A stretch of 64,000 nucleotides of DNA, taken from the NCBI GenBank assembly GCA_964016885.1, contig OZ024746.1, positions 24,738,001-24,802,000 on the forward strand, given 5' to 3'. The notes under the pieces are model-generated. The model was not told the DNA's origin. It ran no database searches and saw only the letters and a list, made by a program, of their open reading frames with translations. A program made the translations under genes and the position numbers. Source of the DNA: Eledone cirrhosa. Taxonomy: Eukaryota. The number at the start of each line of letters is the position of its first letter. Positions within the stretch are counted from its first letter, which is position 1. Positions 6,956 through 7,268 of the stretch are shown here, in pieces.

Positions 6956-7268
6956 ATGAATATAACACCACTGACGATGTTGCAGATGTGCAACGAAAGA
7001 TTTATGTAAACTATATATATATGTGTTTGTCTATATTGTATCTGTATTATTTTTGACCGCCGGTCAGTCAATGGCAACATTGAGGACCGAGTAAGTTAGA
7101 TCGCAGATATATATATATAAAAGACAGCGAGAAGCGAAAACCAACCAAACAGTGAGTGTGTTCTGTTATTAATTCTGGCAATATTACGCAAATATGACCC
7201 TCCCCAAATATAACAATATCTGTTTCGACACACGATTTCATATAAAAAACCTCGCAAAACTAATTCAT
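6956..7268 (+). repeat. PLE 5' pseudo-LTR
   Basis: Direct repeat of 11087-11399 (offset 4131); contains the hammerhead motif, TA tracts and the first 25 codons of the ORF. Confidence 0.93.
6968..7007 (+). ncRNA. Minimal type I hammerhead ribozyme motif (PLE-associated)
   Basis: CUGACGA-U-[GUUGCA gaug UGCAAC]-GAAA, then self-complementary AGAUUU (with G.U pairs) and a UUA site. Helix I pairing is weak. Confidence 0.7.

What the first reader, a model, noticed from the sequence alone, without database searches (positions are those of the whole stretch)
6968..7007. Minimal hammerhead ribozyme at the start of each pLTR (three copies), probably dimer-dependent
Seen: the core CUGACGA, an extra U, a perfect 6-bp stem II, GAAA and a wobble-palindromic AGAUUU helix III. 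The 5' pLTR begins only ~15 nt upstream of the core. Known: PLE pLTRs often carry minimal type I hammerheads thought to cleave as dimers. Inference: cleavage after UUA (~7004 and ~11135) would release a 4131-nt unit RNA containing the whole ORF, which could circularise. Helix I is weak (about 2 bp).
Basis: partly seen in the sequence, partly recalled or inferred. Interest (0 to 1): 0.72.

Follow-up and report, generated by a model that had tools for sequence, protein, structure and literature searches.

The report
Penelope retroelement hammerhead, known kind
This is a real, conserved hammerhead-type RNA motif, predicted to cut itself, in the end repeats of a very abundant Penelope-type jumping gene; such motifs are already known, and the sister copies suggest each insertion is likely copied from one seamless RNA unit, possibly a circle.

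Summary
Confirmed: three identical hammerhead cores (6971, 11102, 5752 on minus) in a young Penelope-like element with an intact ORF. Chance rate is 0.01 per window; Rfam misses it. The genome holds 5,336 exact copies. The core is fixed across subfamilies, and stem II shows two compensatory pairs with G-U intermediates. It matches the variant Cervera and de la Pena described in 2014, and this scan has noted such motifs on other DNA of this genome. Arms and tandem units of one insertion share private variants, which fits a circle or a strand jump. A small excess of junctions near the site (25 vs 4 matches) is suggestive only. Cleavage is not shown.

The parts
6960..7016 (+). Hammerhead copy 1. 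Core 6971-7004, predicted cut 7004/7005. Proximal helix I 6969-6970/7005-7006; a probable distal helix I of A-U pairs at 6960-6964/7012-7016 beyond an internal loop
   Evidence: the distal helix is inferred (conserved, no two-sided change)
11091..11147 (+). Hammerhead copy 2. Core 11102-11135, predicted cut 11135/11136, with the full upstream context
5707..5763 (-). Hammerhead copy 3 in the inverted arm. Core 5752-5719
6956..7268 (+). 5' pseudo-LTR, 5'-truncated at the inversion junction; its last 96 nt lie in the open frame
11087..11399 (+). 3' pseudo-LTR match, ending at a long-class end (7268 equivalent) joined to (TA)n-type repeat
5504..6946 (-). Inverted 5'-truncated arm (= 9903-11350), ending at the short-class end (7219 equivalent); 0 substitutions and one 5-nt gap against the main arm
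6947..6955 (.). 9-nt AT-rich filler at the inversion junction
7173..10826 (+). Intact single frame (1217 codons stop to stop; first in-frame ATG 7194): Asn-rich stretch, DKS motif (aa 511), RT YVDD (aa 833), CX4CxxC linker (aa 1084), C-terminal GIY-YIG with internal Cys pair and His residues (aa 1105 onward)
7219..7278 (+). Tail region with the two classes of copy 3' ends (7212-7225 and 7261-7278); inferred reverse-transcription start sites
11044..11059 (+). A-run plus a conserved AA(A/G)ATGGCG motif (YY1-like, name recalled; possible promoter element); absent from the truncated 5' pLTR
   Evidence: 167 of 197 copies

Best explanation
This is a conserved type I hammerhead motif in the end repeats of a young, very abundant Penelope-like retrotransposon, and it likely acts as a slow, helper-dependent cut-and-rejoin site that would turn a read-through transcript into a unit-length circle used as the copying template. 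Shown: the motif, its copy number, selection on stem II, two fixed classes of 3' end, read-through of the site in most copies, and near-identity of all segments within one insertion. Inferred: transcription starts upstream of one hammerhead and runs past the next; two hammerheads, or the element's own protein, stabilise a fold that costs about 10 kcal/mol as a monomer; cutting after A17 and ligation give a circle of about 4.13 kb; the protein cuts both strands of a (TA)n target and primes one cDNA at each of two start sites in the tail; each cDNA runs back across the seam for a variable distance, which makes the pseudo-LTRs, tandem units and inverted arm.
For: Selection on the fold: stem II occurs as UG/CA (5,336 + 4,081 exact copies) and CA/UG (182). 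Paired intermediates outnumber mismatched states: among the first 100 of 343 matches, CA/UG 58, CG/UG 18, CG/CG 9, against CG/UA 4, CG/CA 3, CA/CA 3, CA/CG 3, CA/UA 2 (hand count); UG/CG 70 and UG/UG 29 of 99 (hand count). Helix II is 98.5% paired with 2 two-sided pairs in 57 sequences. The only recurrent subfamily changes fall at free positions: N7, loop III, 16.2 (G-C to G-U) and H17. The CA/UG form sits in a sister family with 70-78% pLTR identity and upstream ORF homology. One template per insertion: tandem segments in 6 young loci show 7 shared private variants and 2 differences over 7,654 nt; about 12.6 differences were expected at the between-locus rate for the 5 loci other than the window (P=3e-4; P=0.016 without the two arrays). 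Inverted arms in 16 loci: 16 shared, 10 different over 18,476 nt. Array units differ by 0-2 substitutions against 6-9 between most young loci, and all three units of one array have the same shortened frame. A-run length varies 6-26 between young insertions but mostly agrees within one. 26 of 28 two-arm insertions have one short and one long end, none has two of a kind, 2 were unscorable. Literature: dimers and trimers of a min-HHR cleave weakly and the circle model is proposed in PMC4209133; protein-assisted cleavage, two start sites and extension of both strands are shown in PMC11167929.
Against: No cleavage, circle or RNA was observed. Only 1 of 100 anchor-selected copies ends at a place compatible with the cut. 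The genome-wide excess near the cut (25 vs 4 matches; 18 distinct junctions vs 4; P=0.03 after allowing for the wider test set) rests on one control position in different sequence context. Its apparent registers (2 at the cut, 6 at -1, 10 at -2; hand count) do not peak at the cut. In Anolis PAc the hammerhead was not needed for reverse transcription in vitro and no RNA-seq ends were found at the cut (PMC11167929). Naiads lack canonical hammerheads yet reach very high copy numbers (PMC8557442). A seamless junction cannot be located from DNA, so a strand jump explains the same data. Two old insertions (L177, L186) have arms with different stem II forms. Stem II covariation is one lineage split counted many times, and shuffles matched the number of two-sided pairs in 500 of 500 cases. 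DNA-level duplication could explain the two arrays.
Confidence: 0.5

Rival explanations
1. The hammerhead cleaves, but the uncut linear RNA is the template. Repeats are homogenised by a strand jump within the terminally redundant pLTR, and cleavage only regulates or destroys a fraction of transcripts (for example trimming the mRNA 5' end).
For: 91 of 100 copies read through the site. [quoted passage not shown] 5' ends also cluster 70-125 nt upstream of the cut, with two symmetric fold-backs at 11035-11037, near a conserved promoter-like motif. A few percent at most of young copies end near the cut.
Against: It needs precise jumps in nearly every tandem copy. Units of multi-unit arrays and their inverted arm share private variants, which one circle gives directly.
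Confidence: 0.35
2. The motif no longer cleaves. It is kept as a structure, for example a protein-binding or RNA-pairing element, or it rides along as a passenger.
For: The monomer fold lies 9.8-11.0 kcal/mol above the optimum and the dimer helix III is not stable by itself. Proximal helix I has 2 pairs. A 9-nt duplication across the site is carried by 38 of 110 sampled copies. Craig et al. raise the passenger idea.
Against: The catalytic nucleotides, not only the stems, stay fixed across subfamilies while neighbouring free positions change (partly conditioned by the search patterns). Related PLE hammerheads do cleave in vitro.
Confidence: 0.13
3. Chance resemblance to a hammerhead.
For: Rfam finds nothing. 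The 40-nt fold has z = -1.6 only.
Against: Descriptor chance rate 0.01 per window; compensatory stem II forms; the expected position in a pLTR.
Confidence: 0.02

Closest known systems
PLE hammerhead variants with a small palindromic helix III (Drosophila virilis Penelope type; also rotifers, shrimps, mosquitoes), Cervera and de la Pena 2014, PMC4209133
   Same: Type I; located in the pLTR; extra nucleotide between A9 and G10.1; G10.1-C11.1 pair; 6-bp helix II; 2-bp helix I; helix III with a 2-nt palindromic loop; dimer cleavage and circles proposed.
   Different: No bulge in helix II. An older subfamily has a non-palindromic AA loop. Thousands of near-identical copies rather than about 130. 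No intron was shown here. Not a strict min-HHR, which has no loop III, a 7-8-bp helix II and a 4-5-bp helix I.
PAc (Poseidon of Anolis carolinensis), Frangieh et al. 2024, PMC11167929
   Same: Hammerhead upstream of two adjacent internal start sites that lie inside the 5' ORF; tail; AT-rich target; products on both strands.
   Different: Different clade (a Cys linker is present here). The hammerhead lies about 190 nt upstream of the first ATG instead of overlapping it. The start sites are inferred from copy ends, not measured.
Neptune/Nematis-type C-terminal EN+ Penelope-like elements (as described in Craig et al. 2021, PMC8557442)
   Same: RT, then CX2-5CxxC linker, then GIY-YIG with CCHH-type residues; partial tandem plus inverted 5'-truncated arm; tail at one end; (TA)n flanks.
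   Different: Long Asn-rich insert and a DKS motif. Neptune versus Nematis was not resolved because no reference tree was built.

Membership tests
Type I hammerhead ribozyme | Core CUGANGA, GAAA and UH in order, conserved in the family | tested here: met
   recurrent changes only at N7, loop III, 16.2 and H17
Type I hammerhead ribozyme | Helix II with G10.1-C11.1, supported by covariation | tested here: met
   2 two-sided pairs from one lineage split, with G-U intermediates
Type I hammerhead ribozyme | Helix I closing the core | tested here: inconclusive
   2 pairs, 94.7% paired, one-sided changes only; distal helix 78% paired
Type I hammerhead ribozyme | Match to an Rfam hammerhead model | tested here: not met
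   no hammerhead among 3 matches at E<=10. This is a library test, not the definition.
Type I hammerhead ribozyme | Self-cleavage 3' of H17 | not testable with these tools
   only indirect junction counts
Strict min-HHR (Cervera 2014) | No loop III; helix II 7-8 bp; helix I 4-5 bp | tested here: not met
   4 nt lie between A15.1 and U16.1; helix II 6 bp; helix I 2 bp (paper text)
PLE hammerhead variant with small palindromic helix III (Cervera 2014) | Extra nucleotide at 9/10.1, long helix II, short helix I, palindromic helix III | tested here: met
   met in the window copies; the loop palindrome is absent in the older subfamily
PLE hammerhead variant with small palindromic helix III (Cervera 2014) | Cleaves only as a dimer | not testable with these tools
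   energies only
Penelope-like element, EN+ | Single ORF with RT and C-terminal GIY-YIG | tested here: met
   Pfam gives no hit for this protein but RVT_1 in 3 and GIY-YIG in 2 of 25 aligned members
Penelope-like element, EN+ | pLTRs from partial tandem, inverted 5'-truncated arm, tail at one end | tested here: met
Neptune/Nematis clades | CX2-5CxxC linker and CCHH-type motif | tested here: met
   conserved in the 9 of 25 alignment rows displayed
Neptune/Nematis clades | RT phylogeny with named references | not tested
   no reference sequences fetched
Hydra clade | DKT motif, CxCX5C linker, no CCHH | tested here: not met

The most novel reading that the evidence does not exclude
The genome keeps a fossil record that this element is copied from a hammerhead-made RNA circle: each insertion rebuilds its repeats, tandem units and inverted arm from one unit-length molecule primed at two start sites, and the rare junctions, fold-backs and short duplications at the predicted cut mark linear molecules that were cut in vivo but not rejoined.
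Probability: 0.35. Interest if true: 0.6.

Novelty: new member of a known kind. Interest (0 to 1): 0.3.

Why it matters
The motif itself is ordinary for Penelope-like elements. What PLE hammerheads do in vivo is still open (PMC8557442 passage; PMC11167929). This family is young, has intact ORFs and has thousands of copies, so it offers statistical power to test the 2014 circle model against uncut linear templates. It also gives a natural allelic series of stem II and helix III for dimer assays.

Tried and rejected
Rfam scan of 1-20000 was swamped by microsatellite matches; the focused scan found no hammerhead. The DNA search of the own genome returned nothing although thousands of copies exist, so patterns were used. 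The upstream count pattern was mistyped and its zero is void. No RNA holder was listed; laying 4 contig runs gave nothing on ends, strand or expression. No solved-structure match. The 3:1 excess of core over one flank 34-mer (5,336 vs 1,738) was rejected as proof of selection, because a shorter flank anchor has 7,923 copies. Independent CpG decay as the source of the stem II forms was rejected: CA/UG 182 against UG/UG 29 and CA/CA 3 of 100 listed; A-to-G editing could still inflate some intermediates. A jump onto a poly(A) tail at the A-run was rejected, because run length mostly agrees within an insertion. The nine other loose core matches in the window, such as 42740-42768 minus, fail the descriptor. 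Lunse et al. (PMC5785218) is not held; I saw only its title in a reference list, so its variants were not compared. Supplements of PMC4209133 and PMC8557442 were not opened; they may list cephalopod or near-identical motifs. No structure or complex prediction was run.

Full report
Observation. The motif is present as described. Three identical cores lie at 6971-7004 (+), 11102-11135 (+) and 5752-5719 (-). A descriptor requiring the core, a paired stem II, UH and two helix I pairs finds only these three in the window, against 0.01 per 128 kb in 200 simulated sequences. Rfam does not recognise it. Folding programs recover stem II only. Forcing the monomer core costs 9.8-11.0 kcal/mol, and the intermolecular helix III is marginal at +0.2 kcal/mol.

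The element. The direct repeat 6956-7268 = 11087-11399 flanks one open frame (7173-10826), and an inverted arm 5504-6946 copies 9903-11350. Both outer ends join (TA)n-type repeats. [quoted passage not shown] Of 106 homologues, the best (68% identity) is labelled Octopus vulgaris, so the host is probably an octopus (inference). By the features in PMC8557442 (passages; section 11) it is Neptune/Nematis-type, not Hydra, Naiad or Poseidon; no tree was built.

Family and selection. The exact 34-nt core occurs 5,336 times, with a reversed control of 0. An older form with a different helix III and H17 occurs 4,081 times. Of the first 100 of 7,923 copies picked by a downstream anchor, 53 have the exact core, 38 have a full motif with changes and 9 are truncated between core and anchor (the script's 40 includes two truncated copies, removed by eye). 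Recurrent changes fall only at N7, loop III, 16.2 and H17. A relaxed search (187 matches) exposed a sister family with two compensatory pairs in stem II (182 copies), 70-78% identical in the pLTR and with the same ORF upstream. Paired or wobble states dominate the intermediates (hand counts). On 57 selected sequences (the window copy and 56 of 83 distinct loci rows; left out were 20 rows picked for a stem change, 5 with an indel near the cut and 2 others), helix II is 98.5% paired and helix III 98.2%. This is one lineage split, not many events.

Where copies start and stop. In 159 arm records (overlapping loci may repeat a few), 3' ends fall at 7212-7225 (85) or 7261-7278 (57); 8 run on into the next unit and 9 end elsewhere. 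In 26 of 28 two-arm insertions one end is short and the other long, none has two of a kind, and 2 could not be scored. This matches the tail and the two start sites of PAc (PMC11167929, parts 1-2 of 4 read). 5' ends are scattered along the element, so the 15-nt offset at 6956 is an accident of this insertion. The start sites lie 215-273 nt downstream of the cut and 91 of 100 copies run through it, so the template must be continuous there: uncut, rejoined or jumped.

One template per insertion. Tandem segments of one insertion differ far less than loci do (2 differences and 7 shared private variants over 7,654 nt in 6 loci), and A-run lengths agree within but not between insertions. If 5' and 3' repeats were inherited as separate pieces of a linear transcript, they should drift apart as loci do. 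So each insertion is likely rebuilt from one unit. A circle does this; so does a strand jump. DNA duplication could explain the two arrays; without them P is 0.016. Old insertions show larger arm differences, and in several (L060, L064, L081, L109, L118, L177) some other locus was as close or closer.

Ends at the cut. A pattern catching foreign sequence within 2 nt upstream of the cut gave 25 matches, against 4 for a control 10 nt upstream that covers fewer copies. They reduce to 18 junctions and 2 short duplications (hand count). L194 and both arms of L210 end exactly at the cut, and L195/196 and L212/213 are fold-backs centred on it. Most others are ambiguous through TA microhomology, and the registers do not peak at zero. 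I treat this as suggestive (P=0.03).

Comparison with print. PMC4209133 (parts 1-3 of 4 read; figures and supplement not seen) describes this variant, weak dimer cleavage and the circle model. PMC6765202 (passages) reviews the same. bioRxiv 10.64898/2026.07.22.740005 (part 1 of 5) and PMC2377424 (abstract and outline) add context only. Five searches listed no paper on this octopus family or on a genomic test of the circle; the library lacks most subscription papers. Earlier notes of this scan report the same class on other pieces of this genome, including the two-end rule and a single-template reading for other families; none matched this sequence.

Verdict. A real, selected hammerhead motif of a known kind in a new family. 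Cleavage, dimer dependence and circles are inferred. Interest 0.3.

Noticed in passing
window 7002-7010 equivalent, in sister copies (e.g. L017-L021): A 9-nt tandem duplication spanning the predicted cut is carried by 38 of 110 sampled exact-core copies and by contigs of runs X6 and X7. Other short duplications start near the cut in L200, L206 and L217. Unexplained.
   Followed up: partly
window 11051-11059: Conserved AA(A/G)ATGGCG motif (YY1-like, recalled) about 80 nt upstream of the cut in 167 of 197 copies. 5' ends cluster nearby, with two symmetric fold-backs at 11035-11037. The window's 5' pLTR lacks it, so this copy may have no promoter of its own.
   Followed up: partly
window 7091 and 7152 (also 11222, 11283): Two GT(A/G)AGT splice-donor-like sites in the pLTR upstream of the first ATG; other PLEs have 5' UTR introns. 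No RNA was available to test this.
   Followed up: no
window 10826-11025: Six AATAAA hexamers between the stop codon and the 3' hammerhead; polyadenylation here would end the mRNA before the second hammerhead.
   Followed up: no
L177 and L186: The two arms of one apparent old insertion carry different, each fully paired, stem II forms; possibly two templates or adjacent insertions.
   Followed up: partly
G000:C1:14381867-14395591 and C1:124464948-124475932: Head-to-tail arrays of 3 and 2 full units with near-identical units and long A-runs (16-26 nt); all three units of the first have the same shortened frame of 675 codons.
   Followed up: partly
window about 7930-8430 (protein aa about 255-420): Long Asn/His/Ser-rich low-complexity insert from (AAC)n-type repeats, kept in frame.
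   Followed up: no
window 17286-18008 (+), 60230-61703 (-), 62246-63052 (+): Fragments that look like LINE-type reverse transcriptases and a Tc1/mariner-like transposase (names by recall, not searched).
   Followed up: no
G000:C5:8769419-8772848: Three sister-family hammerheads spaced about 1.7 kb apart in tandem; possibly an internally deleted, non-autonomous unit.
   Followed up: no
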